Part shown: positions 1 to 55,703 of the stretch, piece by piece
How the letters are laid out: each line of letters opens with the position of its first letter
Position numbering within the stretch: position 1 is the stretch's first letter
Source of the DNA: a virus
IMG/VR virus record: IMGVR_UViG_3300009709_000006
Coordinates: 1-55,703 of that record
Direction: 5' to 3' (one strand)
Length of the DNA: 55,703 nucleotides
Made by a program: the position numbers and the translations under genes
Notes under the pieces: model-generated
Databases searched by the model: none
The model's input: the letters and a program-made list of their open reading frames with translations, nothing else
What the model was told of the DNA's origin: nothing

Positions 1-218
1 GACCGCAAGGCGCTGGCGCTGTAGCCCGCCGACAGCACGTCGCTGGCGCTGTAGCCCGCCGACAGCACGTCGCTGGCGCTGTAGCCCGCCGACCGCACGT
101 CGCTGGCGCTGTAGCCCGCCGACAGCACGTCGATGGCGCTGTAGCCCGCCGACCGCAAGGCGCTGGCGCTGTAGCCCGCCGACCGCAAGGCGCTGGCGCT
201 GTAGCCCGCCGACCGCAG
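1..218. repeat. 30-bp tandem repeat array (coding), left part; continues from 55519-55703
   Basis: Seven contiguous 30-bp units of the form g[tg]cgctggcgctgtagcccgccgac[ac]gca[acg], with point variants. Confidence 0.95.
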
Positions 219-7879: not shown

Positions 7880-8466
7880 TGCGCTACCCCTCGAATACAG
7901 CAGCGGAGACGCGGCCGAACTGCCAAGCGCCAGAAGCTTGTGTCGCCAAGGGCGCAGGTCATTGCAGATCGTGTCATTTATCCTCCGTCGCCAAGACCCT
8001 GCACGCCGACCCTGAGTTCAAGGCGAAGACCGCAGAGCGCATGAGAGCGCTGCACGCCGACCCTGAGTTCAAGGCGAAGGCCGCAGAGCGCATGAGAGCG
8101 CTGCACGCCGACCCTGAGTTCAAGGCGAAAACCGCAGAGCGCATGAGAGCGCTGCACGCCGACCCTGAGTTCAAGGCGAAAACCGCAGAGCGCAGTCGCG
8201 AGCGCATGAAAGCGCTGAACGCCGACCCTGAGTTCAAGGCGAAAACCGCAGAGCGCATGAGAGCGCTGCACGCCGACCCTGAGTTCAAGGCGAAGGCCGC
8301 AGAGCGCAGTCGCGAGCGCATGAAAGCGCTGAACGCCGAAAAAATCAAGAGACTTGGTCTTCGTGATGAAGAAGTAAGTGATTGGCGCATATTCAAAGCT
8401 AAAGGCCTTTCAAGCCTTGAAGCGGCAGAAATCGTTATTGCGTCGCGTCGCGAGCGCGCTGCATGA
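7879..8466 (+). CDS. Tandem-repeat protein (17-21-aa LHADPEFKAK[TA]AERMRA units), NUMOD3-like DNA-binding repeats (tentative), in cII position
   Basis: ORF track. TGATG coupling to cro. It has an N-terminal Cys cluster (CQAPEAC...CRSC) and six near-identical repeat units. Confidence 0.65.
   Translation: MRYPSNTAAETRPNCQAPEACVAKGAGHCRSCHLSSVAKTLHADPEFKAKTAERMRALHADPEFKAKAAERMRALHADPEFKAKTAERMRALHADPEFKAKTAERSRERMKALNADPEFKAKTAERMRALHADPEFKAKAAERSRERMKALNAEKIKRLGLRDEEVSDWRIFKAKGLSSLEAAEIVIASRRERAA
7999..8340. repeat. 51/63-bp tandem repeat, about 6.2 copies, near-identical
   Basis: Units start at 7999, 8050, 8101, 8152 (63 bp), 8215 and 8266 (63 bp), with a partial unit at 8329. They differ by a few substitutions and a 12-bp AGTCGCGAGCGC insertion. 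Confidence 0.95.
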
Positions 8467-13164: not shown

Positions 13165-14567
13165 GCAAAATCACGGTGCATCATGGCGATAGCCGCGAGG
13201 TGATCAAGAGCATTCCAGACTGCAGCATAGATGCCTGCGTCTGCGATCCGCCCTATGCGCTGGTTTCAATCTCCAAACGGTTCGGCAAAGAGGGCGCGGC
13301 GCCGGCCACGGGTAATGACGCGTACATGCGCGCGTCCGCTGGCTTTATGGGCAAGAATTGGGACACAGGCGAGACTGCGTTTGATCCGGCGTTCTGGGTC
13401 GAGGTTTTGCGAGTGATGAAGCCAGGCGCCCACCTGATCGCCTTCTCTGGTACTCGGACCTATCACCGCCTCGCCTGCGCCATTGAAGACGCTGGGTTTG
13501 AGATTCGCGACATGGTGGCCTGGATATATGGGTCAGGCTTTCCGAAATCGCACGACGTCGCAAAGTCGATTGACAGGACAGAATTAAACGTCATTCGCGG
13601 GCGAGCCGGGCGACAAGGCGCAAGTTTTGGCCAAGAATATGAGCGCACACCCAAAGGTGAGCCGATTTCGGAGAACGCGAAAATATGGGATGGCTGGGGT
13701 ACGGCCCTAAAGCCCGCGCTAGAGCCGATTGTTCTGGCGCGGAAAGCTTTGGATGGCACAGTCGCCAGCAACGTCTTAAAACACGGCACCGGTGCCATAA
13801 ACATCGCTACTTCTCGCATTGAAGGCGTGCCCACAGCTTGGGGGAACCGGACTGAAGGCAACGGTGGCTACAATTTACACAAGAGGATAGACATAGTTCC
13901 GCCCAGTGCCGTTGGCCGATGGCCAGCCAACGTCATACACGACGGATCGGATGAAGTTGTGGGCGCATTTCCGGTTGAGGCTGGAGGCGGCAAGCCAGGC
14001 AAGCCAGGCAAGCCAGGCAAGCCAGGCAAGCCAGGCAAGCCAGGCAAGCCAGGCAAGCCTGCTGTATCAGCTTTAGGCGAAGGTCTAGGGACTTCTGCCA
14101 TCGGTCACGATGATCGCGGATCGGCGGCGCGTTTCTTCTATTCGGCAAAGGCCGACTCTGTTGATCGGCTTGGGTCCAAACATCCGACCGTAAAACCGGT
14201 TGATCTGATGGGCTACCTTTGTCGCCTGGTCACGCCGCCCGGTGGAATAGTCCTAGATCCATTTGCCGGAAGCGGATCGACTGGAATCGCAGCGATGGGG
14301 CAGGGCTTTGAAGCTGTCCTAATTGAGCGAGAATCTGAGTACGTCGCAGACATAAACCGGCGCATTGCATGGGTGCGCGGACATGGGCGCTTAACGGCTC
14401 AGGAAATGGCCAAAGGGCCGGTTGAACCAATAGACGACTTACCTCTCTTCAGCCAGCCAACCAGCCAACCAGCCAACCACGACGACGCGGATCGGGACGG
14501 AAAATCTACGGCGTGTTCGCCGACGAATGCGCATCGGGCCGATGGGATTGAAATGGTGACGCCATGA
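13161..14567 (+). CDS. Beta-class N6-adenine/N4-cytosine DNA methyltransferase (CcrM/HinfI-like order of motifs) with internal (GKP)8 insertion
   Basis: N-terminal motif IV CVCDPPYA. C-terminal motif I VLDPFAGSGSTGIAA. FFYSAKA and KHPTVKP are typical of PF01555. Confidence 0.9.
   Translation: MSKITVHHGDSREVIKSIPDCSIDACVCDPPYALVSISKRFGKEGAAPATGNDAYMRASAGFMGKNWDTGETAFDPAFWVEVLRVMKPGAHLIAFSGTRTYHRLACAIEDAGFEIRDMVAWIYGSGFPKSHDVAKSIDRTELNVIRGRAGRQGASFGQEYERTPKGEPISENAKIWDGWGTALKPALEPIVLARKALDGTVASNVLKHGTGAINIATSRIEGVPTAWGNRTEGNGGYNLHKRIDIVPPSAVGRWPANVIHDGSDEVVGAFPVEAGGGKPGKPGKPGKPGKPGKPGKPGKPAVSALGEGLGTSAIGHDDRGSAARFFYSAKADSVDRLGSKHPTVKPVDLMGYLCRLVTPPGGIVLDPFAGSGSTGIAAMGQGFEAVLIERESEYVADINRRIAWVRGHGRLTAQEMAKGPVEPIDDLPLFSQPTSQPANHDDADRDGKSTACSPTNAHRADGIEMVTP
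13989..14060. repeat. 9-bp tandem repeat GGCAAGCCA x8 (last copy GGCAAGCCT), in frame (Gly-Lys-Pro)8
   Basis: Counted directly in the sequence. The antisense ORF shows (GLP)8. Confidence 0.95.
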
Positions 14568-17533: not shown

Positions 17534-17796
17534 ACAAGCCCGACGACACAGCACCCGTCTCAACCGCGCTCTTGGAGCGGATAGCCGCCCACAAGGCGAG
17601 CGCCGCCCAAGCCGCCCAGATCGCCCGTCAGCAGCAAGTGCAAACGCTCCTGGCTAAGTCCGAGATGGCCAAGCAGAACGCGTTTTACCACCAAGGCCAA
17701 GCTCTGGTCTTTGCGGTTAAGGGCCTTGAACTCGCGATGCAGGCCGCGGCACTGGTGGCTTCTGATTGGTCGCCACCTGCACCACCTGCGGCCTAG
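17530..17796 (+). CDS. Hypothetical protein
   Basis: ORF track. ATGA overlap. Confidence 0.5.
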   Translation: MNKPDDTAPVSTALLERIAAHKASAAQAAQIARQQQVQTLLAKSEMAKQNAFYHQGQALVFAVKGLELAMQAAALVASDWSPPAPPAA

Positions 17797-17868
17797 GTTC
17801 ACGTCGCCGAATTCGTGCATCTTCTAATATAAAAATGAAAAGTAGGAAAAAGTAAATGTAAATAAATG

Positions 17869-17896
17869 TTGAAATATTCTAAACTTTGAATATATT
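17869..17896 (+). promoter_or_regulatory. Sigma70-like promoter TTGAAA-N16-TATATT inside an ~85-bp extremely AT-rich tract (17821-17905)
   Basis: Read directly: TTGAAA at 17869-17874 and TATATT at 17891-17896. It lies 75 nt upstream of the ATG at 17971. Confidence 0.5.
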
Positions 17897-17970
17897 AATA
17901 TTTATCGCCGCGCCACTCACTGCATCGCGTCGCTGCTCCCCGCCACGCAAATCAACGCAAGGAATTTTTT

Positions 17971-18564
17971 ATGAAAACATCGGTCGCAACACTCACAATT
18001 CAAGGCCTAACGCCTTATTCTCAATCCTTTAAGCATGATGAACCAAAACTGGAAGGTGAAAGTCTGGACGCATACGACGCTAGAACGTGGCGCGCAAAAC
18101 TAAACACTGCTAAACGTGGCGGTTTATCAACCGTTGTGATTCCTGCTCACGGCCTTCACCAATCTATTGCTGCGGCGGCTAAATATTCAAAACGTCAGAT
18201 ACCGGGGCAGGGAAAAGCGACATGGACCGCTAAATTCCTCTCGGGCATTTCAATGCTTGAAGATCCAGCCTTAAACATTAACCCCGAAGACGTGCCGTCG
18301 ATCACAATTAACGCTAATGCAGATGGTGTGCGAGGGTCTGGAAAGCGCGTAACAAGACGGTTTCCGATCATGAATGATTGGTCGGCAACCTTCGACGTTT
18401 ACATTCTTGACCCCATCATCACGGAAGATGTGTTCCGAGAAATGGTGGATATCGCAGGCCTTTTTATTGGCATCGGTCGTTTTCGCCCCGAAAAAGGCGG
18501 AACGAACGGCCGTTTCAAGATTGAGCGTCTGATTTGGCAGGATAACCGTCAAGTCGCCGCTTGA
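17971..18564 (+). CDS. Island gene A: hypothetical protein, 197 aa, C-terminal Gly-rich motif GIGRFRPEKGGTNGRF
   Basis: ORF track. AAGGA SD. Visibly lower GC than the flanking genes. Confidence 0.7.
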   Translation: MKTSVATLTIQGLTPYSQSFKHDEPKLEGESLDAYDARTWRAKLNTAKRGGLSTVVIPAHGLHQSIAAAAKYSKRQIPGQGKATWTAKFLSGISMLEDPALNINPEDVPSITINANADGVRGSGKRVTRRFPIMNDWSATFDVYILDPIITEDVFREMVDIAGLFIGIGRFRPEKGGTNGRFKIERLIWQDNRQVAA

Positions 18565-18667
18565 TGCGCTCCACTTCGCAACGCTGCTCGTCGCACCGCT
18601 CCGCCCCTCATCGCGACGCCCCGCCACGCAACGTTTCTCTCTGTAAATCAAGACTCAAGAGGGTAAT

Positions 18668-19168
18668 ATGATCGCCACCGAAATCAGCCCAGACGTAGCC
18701 GCTTTAGTCCTTGCGTTTACTTCCGTCAGCCCAGGTCAAAAAATCGCATATAAAAATCTATCCGATGCCGTTGGCCGAGACGTGAGAAGTTGTTACTGGC
18801 TTGTCCTGCAAGCCCAAAAAATCGCGGCGCGCGATCATGGCGCCGTGTTCGCAAATGAGCGCGGGGTCGGCTTTCAGCGGCTGAAAACCGATGAATTGCA
18901 CACCGTTGGCCATACCGCACGGCGCCTTGTCCGTAGGAAGGTTAGACGCGCCGGCAAACTAATGCGCCAAGGCGCCGCCAAGGCCAATGATATTTCGCCT
19001 GAAGCAGGTCGGAAACTGAACGCCGAATTGTCTGCATTGGCGCTGATTGAGTACGCCGCAAGGGACGCTATGGCCGACCCGGTGAAAGTGCACGAGGAAC
19101 GGCCAGAGCCAGTAGCAATCACGGCGCGCCGGATGTTCGACGCGCTTGGTATATCGGTTTCGACTTGA
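18668..19168 (+). CDS. Island gene B: hypothetical protein, 166 aa
   Basis: ORF track. AAGAGGG SD. Confidence 0.65.
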   Translation: MIATEISPDVAALVLAFTSVSPGQKIAYKNLSDAVGRDVRSCYWLVLQAQKIAARDHGAVFANERGVGFQRLKTDELHTVGHTARRLVRRKVRRAGKLMRQGAAKANDISPEAGRKLNAELSALALIEYAARDAMADPVKVHEERPEPVAITARRMFDALGISVST

Positions 19169-19272
19169 TCCTCTCATACCCCTGCGGCCTAGTGTGTGAT
19201 CCCAAAATGTAGCGCGTTAACTTGCAAATCAACGAAATGTGGTAATCTAAACGCCAAATCTGGGGGTTCGCA

Positions 19273-20253
19273 ATGTTGACTCAGCAGCAGGATTTAAACG
19301 ATCAAATCGACGCGGAAAGTAACTGTGAGCCATCGCTTGAAATGATCGGCCCCATTCCGTTCGTGACGCCTCCAGGATTTTCGGCGCCATGGTTTATTGA
19401 TCTGGCGTTAAAAGATATCCGCGCGCGCGTTGACCGCCAATCCCAAGCTGAACAGCCCGATTATCGCGCTCTATCCCAAGAAATTGGGGCAATTGAACGT
19501 CAGATTGGCACAACGGCGGATCACGTTATTCAGGCAACGCGTGGAATGCAATTCGAGGCAGTTTCCGGTCGCCGTTCAAGCTCCGCTAAGCGCCGCGAAA
19601 AGTTGAACAAGACACGTCAACTTTCATCGACGAATTTAAATCCATTACAGGCTAAACGTTTGGATAAGATAAATCGAAAAATCGCGGCTGCGATATCGGC
19701 AAAGGATGAAAGCAACTTACAAAAAGCATTTGCTGAGGCTCGAAGTTTTCAAGAATCACTTTCGGAAAATGCAAATTCGTCTTGGGCGGCTGACGCAGTC
19801 CAGGAAACTTTGACGCTTGCTCATAGGCGAGGGGAAGCTGTACGATCACGGATCGGCGGCGGCGCGGTACGGCGAACCCAATTAAATATTCTGCTCTCAA
19901 ATGAGGAACTGACCCCGGAACAATACGAGGCTGGCAAGAGATACGGACACTTAGTTGAAAAGCTTCTCTCACCTCGGATCAAGTCGTGCCTTGATGACTC
20001 GGGTGGTGGTTTTGGGGTTCGAGCCGCCGAATCGCGCGCCGCCGCTGTAGAGGAGCGCGCGCAGGTTTGGCAATGGCTACGCCATGACGCGCGGATGATA
20101 ACGCTGTTGGATCGCGTCTGCGTCAACGACGAAAGCCTACACGCTATCGCTCGTGGTGACACTAAACAGCGGGCGCGCTTGGCAGAGCGTTTAGTTGACA
20201 CTCTAGAAATTTTGGCCGCCAAATATGAGCGGCCGCGATCAGCCGCTGCATAA
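19273..20253 (+). CDS. Island gene C: hypothetical protein, 326 aa, helical/charged
   Basis: ORF track. Confidence 0.65.
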   Translation: MLTQQQDLNDQIDAESNCEPSLEMIGPIPFVTPPGFSAPWFIDLALKDIRARVDRQSQAEQPDYRALSQEIGAIERQIGTTADHVIQATRGMQFEAVSGRRSSSAKRREKLNKTRQLSSTNLNPLQAKRLDKINRKIAAAISAKDESNLQKAFAEARSFQESLSENANSSWAADAVQETLTLAHRRGEAVRSRIGGGAVRRTQLNILLSNEELTPEQYEAGKRYGHLVEKLLSPRIKSCLDDSGGGFGVRAAESRAAAVEERAQVWQWLRHDARMITLLDRVCVNDESLHAIARGDTKQRARLAERLVDTLEILAAKYERPRSAAA

Positions 20254-20336
20254 TAGTATTGACGCCGCCCCGGTTTTGTGCGACCTATTCGTCTATCGGT
20301 TGTTCCTGCGTTCGCAGGCAGCTAATCCATTCGCAG

Positions 20337-20368
20337 CCCCCGCAGCCTCACAGCGCGGGGGTTTGCGT
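20337..20368 (+). terminator. Rho-independent terminator
   Basis: Stem CCCCCGC (20337-20343) pairs with GCGGGGG (20355-20361), followed by TTTGCGTT. Confidence 0.6.
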
Positions 20369-20495: not shown

Positions 20496-20571
20496 TGCGG
20501 AATAGGGAAGTAGCCATCCCGCCTGGTTCATACCCAGGAGATCGCCGGTGCGAATCCGGCTTCCGCTCCCA
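20496..20571 (+). tRNA. tRNA-like element, anticodon CAU (Met/Ile2-type), non-canonical T and D loops
   Basis: Hand-folded cloverleaf. Acceptor 20496-20502/20561-20567 (6 bp plus a U:U at 1:72). U8. D stem GGGA/UCCC. Anticodon stem CCUGG/CCAGG with loop UUCAUAC. Variable loop AGAUC. T stem GCCGG/CCGGC with loop UGCGAAU. Encoded CCA. Confidence 0.45.
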
Positions 20572-20656
20572 CCATCGCGCTCCACAACGCCGACCAATTC
20601 GCCCCCTTGTTGAGCGGCTGACGTGCTGAGCGCGATACCCATACCGGAGCAACGCC

Positions 20657-55134: not shown

Positions 55135-55703
55135 CTATGCCTCCTCAACCGCAACGGCGCCGACCGGAATCGTACCGTTCGCCTCGTGCTCCGCCACCTC
55201 CTCAATGTACGCGAGCGCCCATTCGTCAGGGATTGAGCTGAAGTCTTGGCATGGCCAACCTGGGTGCGCTTTTTGATGGATAAGCGCTCCAGCGGTCGAA
55301 AACCCAAATTCTTTTTGCAGTTTCCAACCGAGCTCGCCGCCCAAGTTAACAAGGTGGCCGGCAGTACACATTGCCGTGTTGCAGATATTTTCCTCTCGGA
55401 TGTAATGGCCAGGACCGAAGGTTGACTGTTTGAAAATACGCTCCCTCGCTTGAATGCCCTTCAAGATTTTTGTGTAGGGATTTTCGACCAGCGGAACTCG
55501 GTCAAACAGTTCTTGCACGTCGCTGGCGCTGTAGCCCGCCGACAGCACGTCGCTGGCGCTGTAGCCCGCCGACCGCAGGGCGCTGGCGCTGTAGCCCGCC
55601 GACCGCAAGGCGCTGGCGCTGTAGCCCGCCGACCGCAAGGCGCTGGCGCTGTAGCCCGCCGACAGCACGTCGCTGGCGCTGTAGCCCGCCGACAGCACGT
55701 CGC
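55135..55703 (-). CDS. C-terminal part of decapeptide-repeat protein (5' part is 1-281 across the junction)
   Basis: ORF track 55135-55698, open at the window edge. SAGYSAS units are followed by a ~130-aa non-repeat domain (QELFDRVPLVENPY...NTAMCTAGHLVNLGG...). Confidence 0.75.
   Translation of the reverse strand, partial: DVLSAGYSASDVLSAGYSASALRSAGYSASALRSAGYSASALRSAGYSASDVLSAGYSASDVQELFDRVPLVENPYTKILKGIQARERIFKQSTFGPGHYIREENICNTAMCTAGHLVNLGGELGWKLQKEFGFSTAGALIHQKAHPGWPCQDFSSIPDEWALAYIEEVAEHEANGTIPVGAVAVEEA
55519..55703. repeat. 30-bp tandem repeat array, right part (6.2 units)
   Basis: Same unit as 1-218. The last 73 nt are identical to nt 1-73. Confidence 0.95.

What the first reader, a model, noticed from the sequence alone, without database searches (positions are those of the whole stretch)
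17821..20368. Self-contained lower-GC three-gene island with its own promoter, shared 5'-UTR motifs and terminator: candidate uncharacterised accessory or defence module
Between the replication and packaging modules lies a visibly AT-richer block (composition judged by eye, not computed). It opens with an ~85-bp extremely AT-rich tract holding a near-consensus TTGAAA-N16-TATATT promoter (17869-17896). It ends at a clean terminator (20337-20368). It encodes three proteins (197, 166 and 326 aa) that I cannot place in any family. The spacers before the genes carry repeated GC-rich elements:
- CCCCGCCACGCAA is identical at 17938-17950 and 18619-18631.
- CATCGCG precedes both of those copies.
- GCAAATCAACG is identical at 17947-17957 and 19224-19234, with a GTAAATCAAG variant at 18643-18652.
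Protein A ends in a glycine-rich motif (GIGRFRPEKGGTNGRF) reminiscent of G-rich loops in RNA-binding RAMP/RRM-type folds. That is only a resemblance. A promoter-gene-terminator unit of foreign composition is the classic moron architecture used by prophage-encoded defence or conversion systems. Alternatively these could be middle or late transcription regulators.
Basis: partly seen in the sequence, partly recalled or inferred. Interest (0 to 1): 0.75.

Follow-up and report, generated by a model that had tools for sequence, protein, structure and literature searches.

The report
Phage VIPR RNA-guided interference cassette
The AT-rich "island" is mostly a 1.4-kb phage cassette of the recently described VIPR type, made of a small CRISPR-like RNA-binding protein, two guide RNAs built from 5-base repeats and a DNA-binding helper; its repeats use C-(G/T/A)-C where the published ones use G-G-pyrimidine.

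Summary

**The three genes**
- Protein A (17971-18564) is a Vipr protein. A profile of its family matches the solved SUSP1 Vipr structure (E = 2.3e-14), and its AlphaFold model matches only Cas7-type RAMPs.
- Protein B is a winged-helix accessory protein that co-occurs with A in 10 of the 11 related loci.
- Gene C is not part of the unit.
  - It has one close homologue anywhere.
  - It is absent from the 11 related vipr loci.
  - It is present in a 95-98% identical phage fragment that lacks 17797-19192.
- The cassette is therefore a 1,396-bp indel flanked by a 12-bp direct repeat.

**The "shared 5'-UTR motifs"**
- They are fragments of two pentanucleotide-repeat tracts, 17904-17958 and 18565-18654.
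- These tracts are the two strongest period-5 signals in the 55.7-kb window.
- Across 706 units in 11 loci, two positions carry no information. The other three read C (92%), G/T/A, C (99%).
- This is the vrRNA guide architecture, but with CDC in place of the published GGY.
- The G-loop aspartate that contacts the first G in SUSP1 is arginine here.

**Limits**
- No natural target was found.
- RNA expression could not be tested.

**Verdict:** a member of a kind first described in 2026, possibly a new repeat-code variant.

The parts
17785..17796 (.). Left copy of the 12-bp direct repeat CCTGCGGCCTAG. It includes the stop codon of the upstream 88-aa ORF.
   Evidence: The repeat occurs only twice in the window, at the two edges of the segment missing from L014.
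17821..17903 (+). AT-rich tract (about 15% GC) carrying a sigma-70-like promoter: -35 TTGAAA at 17869-17874 and -10 TATATT at 17891-17896. The predicted transcription start is about 17903-17904.
   Evidence: The -10 box ends 7 nt before the first repeat unit. Relatives L006-L009 independently have TTGACA-N18-TATAAG ending 8 nt before their first unit.
17904..17958 (+). Candidate vrRNA1: 11 units of NN-C(G/T/A)C. The NN series is AT CG CA AC AT GT TG CC CA AA AA, and the last two units form the conserved 3' handle AA-ATC AA-CGC. The Shine-Dalgarno AAGGA (17959-17963) follows.
   Evidence: It is the top period-5 peak in the window; layout. It is less structured than shuffled versions, z = +2.0.
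17971..18564 (+). vipr gene (protein A, 197 aa): a minimal RAMP with G-loop G167-I-G-R170-F171-R172-P173-EKGGTNGRF.
   Evidence: The family profile matches PDB 36pp_D SUSP1 Vipr at E = 2.3e-14 over residues 13-188. The AlphaFold model has pLDDT 86.5. Foldseek gives 81 hits with E <= 0.001, and the 50 listed are all CRISPR effector-complex structures, mostly Cas7-type RAMP subunits. There are 1,346 homologues, the best 120 at 72-85% identity and 112 of them 197 aa long.
18565..18654 (+). Candidate vrRNA2: starts at the base after the vipr stop codon. It has 13 clean units (18565-18629; NN = TG TC TT AA TG GT AC TC CC AT GA CC CA), three degenerate units, then the handle AA-ATC AA-GAC (18645-18654). 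The Shine-Dalgarno AAGAGGG (18657-18663) follows.
   Evidence: It is the second period-5 peak in the window; layout.
18668..19168 (+). vap-like accessory gene (protein B, 166 aa): an N-terminal winged helix plus a long helical hairpin.
   Evidence: AlphaFold pLDDT is 91.9. Most of the best Foldseek hits are winged-helix DNA-binding domains, probability up to 0.99 but E >= 0.06. A homologue lies next to vipr in L002, L003 and L005-L013 at 33-62% identity, before or after vipr.
19181..19192 (.). Right copy of the 12-bp direct repeat CCTGCGGCCTAG: the end of the 1,396-bp cassette (17797-19192).
19224..19234 (+). GCAAATCAACG, an 11-nt match to the vrRNA1 handle in the leader of gene C. It lies in phage backbone sequence, not in the cassette, and is unexplained.
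   Evidence: L014, which lacks the cassette, has GCAAATCGACG at the same place.
19273..20253 (+). Gene C (326 aa): a neighbouring backbone gene, not part of the VIPR cassette. Its C-terminal ~150 aa are distantly related to a family in which some members match DUF6456.
20332..20367 (+). Hairpin likely to terminate the operon, with a weak U-tail.
   Evidence: The terminator scan did not list it.

Best explanation
Window 17797-19192 is a VIPR (Viral Interference Programmable Repeat) cassette carried by a temperate phage.

**Proposed mechanism**
1. A strong promoter in the AT-rich tract starts transcription at about 17903.
2. The transcript reads vrRNA1, vipr, vrRNA2, vap, and probably continues through gene C to the hairpin at 20332-20367.
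3. Each vrRNA is a run of 5-nt units. Three positions are fixed (C, then G/T/A, then C) and two are free (NN).
4. By homology with the solved SUSP1 complex, one Vipr protomer (protein A, a minimal Cas7-like RAMP) binds each unit.
5. The protomers hold the fixed triplet and present the NN pairs. The resulting filament reads a double-stranded DNA site of about 30-40 bp in a gapped way (NNxNNx...) and blocks transcription there.
6. The winged-helix protein B assists at the DNA.
7. The likely use is to silence a competing phage or prophage, from the lysogen or during infection.

**Shown here**
- The homology and fold of A.
- The winged-helix fold of B and its linkage to A.
- The period-5 tracts, their information profile and their hypervariable NN positions.
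- The transcribed strand.
- The promoter placement.
- The cassette boundaries.

**Inferred from the published system**
- Filament assembly.
- The 1-nt skip rule.
- Repression as the outcome.
- The kind of target.

**Specific to this clade**
- The fixed triplet is CDC, not GGY.
- SUSP1 D177, which contacts G1, corresponds to R170 here. By motif alignment, H17 (PFLSH) corresponds to S19 (PYSQS).
For: **Protein A**
- Single-sequence match to SUSP1 Vipr, E = 0.0036. Profile match E = 2.3e-14, nearly full length.
- The 50 Foldseek hits listed are all CRISPR effector-complex structures, mostly Cas7-type subunits (type VII Cas7, Csm3, Cmr, Cascade Cas7), best E = 7.6e-7.

**Repeat tracts**
- They are the two top period-5 peaks in the window, about 7.5-8 sd above the mean.
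- In 706 units from 47 tracts in 11 loci, positions 1-2 carry 0.03 and 0.01 bit. Position 3 is C in 92%. Position 4 is G 57%, T 35%, A 8% and never C. Position 5 is C in 99%.
- L006 and L008 have vipr genes 98.1% identical in nucleotides. Their upstream tracts share only 32% of NN positions but 82% of CDC positions.
- Tract sizes of 11 and 13-18 units compare with the published 9-16.

**Architecture**
- One tract lies upstream of vipr, and one or an array lies downstream on the same strand, with an adjacent DNA-binding accessory gene.
- This matches the published description.

**Transcribed strand**
- Promoters end 7-8 nt before the first unit, in the window and independently in L006-L009.
- A conserved AA-CNC-AA-CGC handle sits at the 3' end of the tracts.
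- Spacer hairpins in L002-L004 fold at a mean of -27.9 kcal/mol on the vipr strand and -15.2 on the other.

**G-loop and repeat type co-vary**
- SUSP1 has D-W-R with GGY.
- LESphi2 has D-Y-R with GGC.
- phiHSIC has D-F-R with GCA.
- This clade has R-F-R with CDC.

**Other**
- No self-target of 80% or more exists in the window, as the published controls also report.
- The phage context is clear: TerL, SU10-type portal, DnaB, RecT and integrase.
Against: - Expression, processing and the ends of the vrRNAs are therefore predictions.
- No natural target was found. Exact-seed scans under the 1-nt skip rule gave only chance-level hits. Scans for 0-nt and 2-nt skips gave nothing.
- The window's vrRNAs have no structured 3' tail or pseudoknot like SUSP1's.
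- The window's vrRNAs abut the ribosome-binding sites of vipr and vap, so they might also, or instead, act in cis.
- In SUSP1, substitutions in the GGY triplet abolish function. Binding of a CDC triplet by this clade is inferred only from conservation and residue changes.
- B's structural matches are weak in E-value.
Confidence: 0.85

Rival explanations
1. The tracts are cis-acting binding sites, not trans-acting guides. Protein A polymerises on the C-rich leaders directly upstream of the vipr and vap ribosome-binding sites and autoregulates translation or mRNA stability. No DNA is targeted.
For: - Both window tracts end 0-2 nt before a Shine-Dalgarno sequence.
- No DNA target was found.
- The tracts are unusually unstructured, as single-strand binding platforms would be.
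Against: - A cis site has no reason to keep two of every five positions at zero information.
- It also has no reason to swap them wholesale between phages whose vipr genes are 98% identical.
- Relatives carry arrays of up to 8 tracts separated by hairpins, with no gene behind most of them.
- The homologous SUSP1 system is shown to guide DNA binding in trans.
- Autoregulation could still exist alongside guiding.
Confidence: 0.06
2. One reading: a self-contained three-gene (A-B-C) moron or defence island of an unknown type, with shared 5'-UTR regulatory motifs.
For: - Low GC, its own promoter and a downstream hairpin.
- An 11-nt motif shared between the leaders of A and C.
- C also has below-average GC, 0.522.
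Against: - C is absent from the 11 related vipr loci examined.
- C is present without A and B in L014.
- A belongs to a now-described family.
- The motifs are parts of pentanucleotide repeats.
Confidence: 0.04
3. The guides are transcribed from the opposite strand, so the RNA units read G-(C/A/T)-G-NN, closer to the G-rich published motifs.
For: - All published consensus forms contain G.
- The minus-strand reading has two G per unit.
Against: - The promoters face the + strand and end 7-8 nt before the tracts in two independent lineages.
- The conserved handle would then sit at the 5' end, unlike the published vrRNAs.
- The spacer hairpins need G-U pairs that exist only on the vipr strand, -27.9 against -15.2 kcal/mol.
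- Canonical GGC-NN arrays in LESphi2 are on the vipr strand.
Confidence: 0.04

Closest known systems
VIPR systems, type II (Escherichia phage SUSP1, Pseudomonas fulva prophage); bioRxiv 10.64898/2026.04.26.720920 and 10.64898/2026.04.26.720927; PDB 36pp
   Same: - A ~20-kDa Vipr RAMP, homologous at the sequence level (E = 2.3e-14).
- Guide RNAs made of tandem 5-nt units with three fixed and two hypervariable positions.
- One guide upstream of vipr and others downstream, on the same strand.
- An adjacent DNA-binding accessory gene.
- Encoded by a phage, with no CRISPR array or cas genes nearby.
   Different: - The fixed triplet is C-(G/T/A)-C rather than G-G-Y.
- The G-loop residue that contacts G1 is Arg (R170) rather than Asp (D177).
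- The window's guides have no hairpin or pseudoknot tail. They end in an AA-xxC-AA-xxC handle (AA-CNC-AA-CGC in the relatives) that abuts a ribosome-binding site.
- A is only about 25-30% identical to canonical Viprs.
- The targeting rule and the targets are untested here.
Cas7-family backbone subunits of class 1 CRISPR effectors (type VII Cas7, type III Csm3/Cmr4, type I Cas7)
   Same: RRM-based RAMP fold with a glycine-rich loop and a thumb hairpin. These give the top Foldseek matches, at probability 1.0. One protomer binds per short RNA segment.
   Different: - No CRISPR repeat-spacer array.
- No Cas5, Cas6, large subunit, nuclease or adaptation genes.
- A 5-nt rather than 6-nt register.
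- Guide information is spread over NN pairs rather than held in a contiguous spacer.
- Sequence identity is 10-18%.
Prophage morons (promoter-gene-terminator accessory units)
   Same: Own promoter, lower GC, dispensable (absent from a sister phage), and inserted between functional modules.
   Different: "Moron" describes only the architecture. Here the cargo and mechanism can be named, and the unit ends at 19192, not at the terminator after gene C.

Membership tests
VIPR system | Vipr protein: a minimal RAMP homologous to known Viprs | tested here: met
   The profile of A's family matches SUSP1 Vipr (36pp_D) at E = 2.3e-14 over A 13-188 and Vipr 28-191. A single sequence gives E = 0.0036.
VIPR system | RAMP hallmarks: RRM core, glycine-rich loop and thumb | tested here: met
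   - The AlphaFold model (pLDDT 86.5) has a beta-alpha-beta core and a beta-hairpin at 110-134.
- The 50 Foldseek hits listed are all CRISPR effector-complex structures, mostly Cas7-type subunits.
- The G-loop GIGRFRPEKGGTNGRF has invariant residues G167, G169, F171, R172, P173, G177, G180, R181 and F182.
- The thumb is assigned by alignment to the SUSP1 R138 region, not inspected in three dimensions.
VIPR system | vrRNA: tandem pentanucleotide units (9-16 per RNA) with three conserved and two hypervariable positions | tested here: met
   The window's tracts have 11 and 13-18 units. Information per position is 0.03, 0.01, 1.50, 0.69 and 1.88 bit over 706 units. NN positions are hypervariable between near-identical loci.
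VIPR system | Canonical repeat consensus GGY/NN (YNNGG), or a named alternative (NNNGG, YNNNG, NNNNG) | tested here: not met
   - The units read NN-C(G57/T35/A8)C.
- In the paper's notation this is C-N-N-C-D. It fits YNNNG only in the units with G at position 2, and does not fit the CTC-rich arrays of L002-L005 at all.
- The figure with the logos of the other types (fig. S17) is not held, so I cannot say whether this form has already been drawn.
VIPR system | vrRNAs in the intergenic regions flanking vipr, on the vipr strand | tested here: met
   True of the window and of the other A-clade loci, L002-L013; the distant relatives LESphi2 (L001) and phiHSIC (L029) show the same layout.
VIPR system | Adjacent vap accessory gene predicted to interact with DNA | tested here: met
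   B is a winged-helix protein. It is linked to vipr in 10 of 11 related loci; the eleventh, L004, ends inside its array. Homology to a published vap1-6 could not be tested because no sequences are held.
VIPR system | vrRNAs expressed as ~100-nt RNAs that co-purify with Vipr | not testable with these tools
VIPR system | NN code matches natural DNA targets under the 1-nt skip rule, without self-targeting | tested here: inconclusive
   - No self-target: the best match in the window is 64-68%.
- Exact seeds of 9-10 units returned 0-7 hits per collection.
- Extensions of the hits were at chance level.
- Only exact seeds could be scanned, whereas the published method accepts matches of 80% or more.
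Class 1 CRISPR-Cas | CRISPR repeat-spacer array and further cas genes next to the RAMP | tested here: not met
   No repeat-spacer array was found in the window. The neighbours are replication genes, a winged-helix gene and an ORFan. PADLOC gave no hit for A, B or C.

The most novel reading that the evidence does not exclude
This clade would be an undescribed specificity class of VIPR.
- It holds at least 1,346 protein clusters, and the 120 best hits are 72-85% identical to A.
- The protein-held triplet of the guide has switched from G-G-Y to C-D-C, together with changes at the two G1-contacting residues (SUSP1 D177 to R170; H17 probably to S19).
- That would show that the scaffold half of the repeat code evolves, not only the NN half, and would give a second, orthogonal Vipr/vrRNA pair.
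- The cassette would also be a discrete 1.4-kb mobile unit bounded by a 12-bp direct repeat.
- Its guides would double as the 5' leader and the intercistronic spacer of its own mRNA.
Probability: 0.4. Interest if true: 0.75.

Novelty: new member of a known kind. Interest (0 to 1): 0.6.

Why it matters
- VIPR was reported only in 2026, as a minimal, PAM-free, RNA-guided way to bind DNA and a proposed ancestor of CRISPR RAMPs.
- This window gives a compact natural example, and a sister phage lacking it provides a clean presence/absence comparison.
- A very large metagenomic clade appears to use a G-poor CDC/NN repeat with matching changes in the G-loop.
- If confirmed, that means orthogonal Vipr/guide pairs exist. 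It also gives a natural experiment on how the protein reads the fixed triplet.
- In practice, gene callers translate these arrays into false proteins, and no family library searched here names Vipr.

Tried and rejected
- **Family libraries.** Pfam, NCBIfam and PADLOC gave nothing for A, B or C. PHROGs gave only an unknown-function family for A.
- **DNA similarity.** The island matches no known phage apart from a 58-bp stretch over the tRNA gene.
- **Rfam.** No known RNA family or ribozyme was found in the window's tracts or in the relatives' inter-guide spacers, although hammerhead-interspersed arrays are reported for some VIPR types.
- **Tandem Repeats Finder.** It does not detect the tracts, because the NN positions vary too much.
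- **Target searches.**
  - No self-target in the window for skips of 0-3 nt.
  - vrRNA2 seeds against viral contigs: 0 hits.
  - vrRNA1 seed: one independent viral hit, seen in two contigs. It lies in frame with a SNF2 helicase gene, with the skipped bases at wobble positions (IRQTMVWPQ).
  - By my rough estimate that is about what chance gives, and it does not extend further.
  - Five genome hits and seven metagenome hits all had chance-level extensions.
  - Three guides from relative L006: 0 hits.
  - 0-nt and 2-nt skip versions of vrRNA2: 0 hits.
  - All 47 guides against all the loci in hand: no better than shuffled guides, 0.720 against 0.714.
- **Intergenic region 3 (19169-19272) as a third guide.** Rejected, because it has no period-5 signal. 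Only an 11-nt handle-like match remains, and it is also present in L014.
- **C as a vap.** Rejected on distribution.
- **RNA-seq.** Not available.
- **Supplementary tables of the paper.** Not held, so the VIPR type could not be assigned.
Full report
**1. Checking the observation**

The region is as described.
- GC of 17821-20368 is 0.517, against 0.577 for the window. Only 2 of 1,064 windows of that size are lower, and the lowest starts at 17751 and overlaps the island.
- The tract 17821-17905 has 15% GC, the lowest 85-bp stretch by a wide margin.
- TTGAAA-N16-TATATT lies at 17869-17896.
- ORFs of 197, 166 and 326 aa are present.
- The repeated strings sit at the stated coordinates, and the longer ones occur nowhere else in the window.
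- The hairpin at 20332-20367 is strong (-24.5 kcal/mol, z = -4.45). Its U-tail is weak, and the scan did not list it.
- Pfam, NCBIfam and PADLOC do not place any of the three proteins. A matches PHROG 4652, of unknown function.

**2. Protein A is a Vipr**

- A search of PDB sequences with A alone gave one hit: chain 36pp_D, "SUSP1 Vipr protein", E = 0.0036.
- A profile of 33 family members raised this to E = 2.3e-14 over nearly the whole length.
- The AlphaFold model (pLDDT 86.5) gave 81 Foldseek matches with E <= 0.001. The 50 listed are all CRISPR effector-complex structures, mostly Cas7-type RAMP subunits: type VII Cas7, Csm3, Cmr subunits and Cascade Cas7.

Vipr was described in 2026 (bioRxiv 10.64898/2026.04.26.720920; structures in 10.64898/2026.04.26.720927). 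VIPR systems have these published features:
- They are mostly phage-encoded.
- They consist of a ~20-kDa RAMP, an accessory gene (vap) and vrRNAs.
- Each vrRNA has 9-16 pentanucleotide units, in which GGY alternates with hypervariable NN.
- One protomer binds each unit.
- The NN pairs read double-stranded DNA, skipping every third base.
- Binding represses transcription.
- Natural targets are competing phages and prophages.

**3. The "5'-UTR motifs" are repeat-coded RNAs**

A period-5 column-information scan of the whole window puts its two highest peaks at 17911 (2.82) and 18591 (2.71). The mean is 0.66, the sd 0.28 and the next best value 2.07.

Laid out in fives:
- 17904-17958 reads ATCGC CGCGC CACTC ACTGC ATCGC GTCGC TGCTC CCCGC CACGC AAATC AACGC.
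- 18565-18629 reads TGCGC TCCAC TTCGC AACGC TGCTC GTCGC ACCGC TCCGC CCCTC ATCGC GACGC CCCGC CACGC.
- Three degenerate units follow, then AAATC AAGAC (to 18654).

**4. The same architecture recurs wherever A occurs**

- A has 1,346 homologues. The best 120 are 72-85% identical and 112 of them are 197 aa long.
- I fetched 11 loci from different phage backbones. All carry tracts of the same kind on the vipr strand.
- Typically one tract lies upstream, and one to eight lie downstream or in an array upstream. Each ends in AA-CNC-AA-CGC.
- Over 706 units in 47 tracts, the two NN positions carry 0.03 and 0.01 bit. The next three are C (92%), G/T/A (57/35/8%, never C) and C (99%).
- L006 and L008 have vipr genes 98.1% identical in nucleotides. 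Their upstream tracts share 32% of NN positions and 82% of CDC positions.
- Fixed scaffold plus hypervariable pairs is the defining vrRNA pattern. It is not what a cis-regulatory motif or a coding region would show.
- Public gene calls translate some arrays as 183-190-aa "proteins".

**5. Which strand is transcribed**

Four observations point to the vipr strand.
- The window's promoter ends 7 nt before the first unit. In L006-L009 an unrelated TTGACA-N18-TATAAG ends 8 nt before theirs.
- The conserved handle is at the 3' end on this strand, as in published vrRNAs.
- The 44-nt spacers between guides in L002-L004 are co-varying hairpins. They fold at a mean of -27.9 kcal/mol on this strand and -15.2 on the other, because they rely on G-U pairs.
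- The distant relative in LES prophage 2 has canonical GGC-NN arrays on its vipr strand.

**6. A different fixed triplet**

- On that strand the triplet is C-D-C, not G-G-Y.
- The paper names NNNGG, YNNNG and NNNNG as alternatives. CDC fits YNNNG only partly. The figure with the logos is not held.

The structure paper says how SUSP1 Vipr holds the triplet:
- G1 is held by H17 and D177.
- G2 is held by R138 and W178.
- Y3 is held partly by R179.

Aligned G-loops and their repeat types:

| System | G-loop residues | Fixed triplet |
|---|---|---|
| SUSP1 | D-W-R | GGY |
| LESphi2 | D-Y-R | GGC |
| phiHSIC ORF22 | D-F-R | GCA |
| This clade | R-F-R (R170 in at least 90% of members) | CDC |

- Anchoring on the conserved proline, SUSP1 PFLSH17 corresponds to PYSQS19 here (inference).
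- Aspartate goes with G at position 1 in three lineages, and arginine with C in this one.
- This supports the strand call and suggests a real change of specificity. It remains an inference.

**7. Protein B**

- The AlphaFold model (pLDDT 91.9) has a winged helix at about 8-71 followed by a long helical hairpin.
- Most of the best Foldseek hits are winged-helix DNA-binding domains, with weak E-values.
- B homologues (33-62% identity) sit next to vipr in 10 of 11 loci, before or after it.
- This fits the "vap" of the VIPR types whose accessory genes are predicted DNA binders.

**8. Gene C is not part of the unit**

- The word-indexed search found one homologue, at 99% identity.
- An exhaustive search found 33 distant relatives, mostly of its C-terminal ~150 residues. 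Three of 30 scanned match DUF6456.
- C is in none of the related vipr loci.
- The contig with the 99% homologue (L014) matches the window at 94.7% up to 17795 and at 98% from 19181 onwards. It lacks what lies between.
- The missing segment is bounded by CCTGCGGCCTAG at 17785 and 19181, the only two copies in the window.
- The cassette is therefore 17797-19192 (1,396 bp, GC 0.512): promoter tract, vrRNA1, vipr, vrRNA2 and vap.
- Insertion with a 12-bp duplication and deletion between the two repeats cannot be told apart.
- The 11-nt GCAAATCAACG in C's leader is also in L014, with one change. It remains unexplained.

**9. Targets**

- No site in the window matches either guide at 80% or more, consistent with the published absence of self-targeting.
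- Public collections can only be scanned for exact patterns, so I used seeds of 9-10 units.
- vrRNA2 gave nothing in viral contigs. It gave seven metagenome hits with chance-level extensions.
- vrRNA1 gave one independent viral hit.
  - It lies in frame in a SNF2 helicase gene, with the skipped bases at wobble positions.
  - One hit is roughly what I estimate chance gives for 18 specified bases; the collection's size was guessed, not measured.
- vrRNA1 also gave five unconvincing genome hits.
- Guides of relatives and other skip lengths gave nothing.
- The targets are unknown.

**10. Context**

The window is a temperate phage, with a DNA methylase, DnaB, an HNH/replication protein, TerL, an SU10-type portal, RecT and an integrase. 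Identical 30-bp tandem repeats at both ends suggest a circular or terminally redundant genome.

**11. Verdict**

- The finding is a VIPR cassette (confidence about 0.85), not a three-gene island.
- Its kind has been known since 2026, so I file it as a new member.
- There is a fair chance (about 0.4) that its CDC/NN code with the D-to-R G-loop change is an undescribed variant.
- Expression, processing, the skip rule and the targets are inferred, not shown.

Noticed in passing
window 1-217 and 55515-55703: The same 30-bp tandem repeat (unit GACCGCACGTCGCTGGCGCTGTAGCCCGCC) is present at both ends, 7.2 and 6.3 copies. The contig is probably a circular or terminally redundant complete phage genome with a ~13-copy array of unknown role.
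   Followed up: no
window 20496-20571: A tRNA-Met (CAT) gene lies directly after the operon's hairpin. The only DNA match of the region to a known phage is a 58-bp stretch at 20520-20577, overlapping this tRNA gene.
   Followed up: partly
L014 versus window 17785-19192: A 95-98% identical phage fragment from another metagenome lacks exactly the VIPR cassette. The 12-bp repeat CCTGCGGCCTAG marks both edges. Whether this was an insertion or a deletion is unresolved.
   Followed up: yes
L002 8675-9060, L003, L004: The guides in these arrays are separated by 44-nt co-varying hairpins (GTCGC...GGATGGGCGAC). The hairpins fold far better on the vipr strand and match no Rfam family. They are candidate processing elements; the L006-type arrays have different spacers.
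   Followed up: partly
L002 8594-9145; L003 8594-9166; L029 2706-2987 (phiHSIC ORF21): Public annotations call protein-coding genes across vrRNA arrays: 183 aa, 190 aa, and ORF21 on the opposite strand. These are very likely spurious.
   Followed up: partly
L001 5387-6390 (Pseudomonas phage LESphi2, OQ594955): LES prophage 2 carries a distant Vipr homologue (P21_9). Three canonical GGC-NN tracts lie upstream of it, next to cI and a gene annotated as a sigma factor.
   Followed up: partly
L029 2093-2985 (Listonella phage phiHSIC, AY772740): ORF22 is a Vipr homologue with G-loop GFGDFRP. It is followed by three tracts of NN-GCA units, a third repeat consensus.
   Followed up: partly
window 19224-19234: GCAAATCAACG in the leader of gene C is identical to the 3' handle region of vrRNA1. 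It lies in backbone DNA, and L014 has it with one change. It could be chance, a remnant or a binding site.
   Followed up: partly
window 7999-8339 and 13989-14059: There are 51-bp tandem repeats (5.8 copies) between 7999 and 8308, where ORFs lie on both strands, and GGCAAGCCA x7.9 inside the methylase ORF.
   Followed up: no
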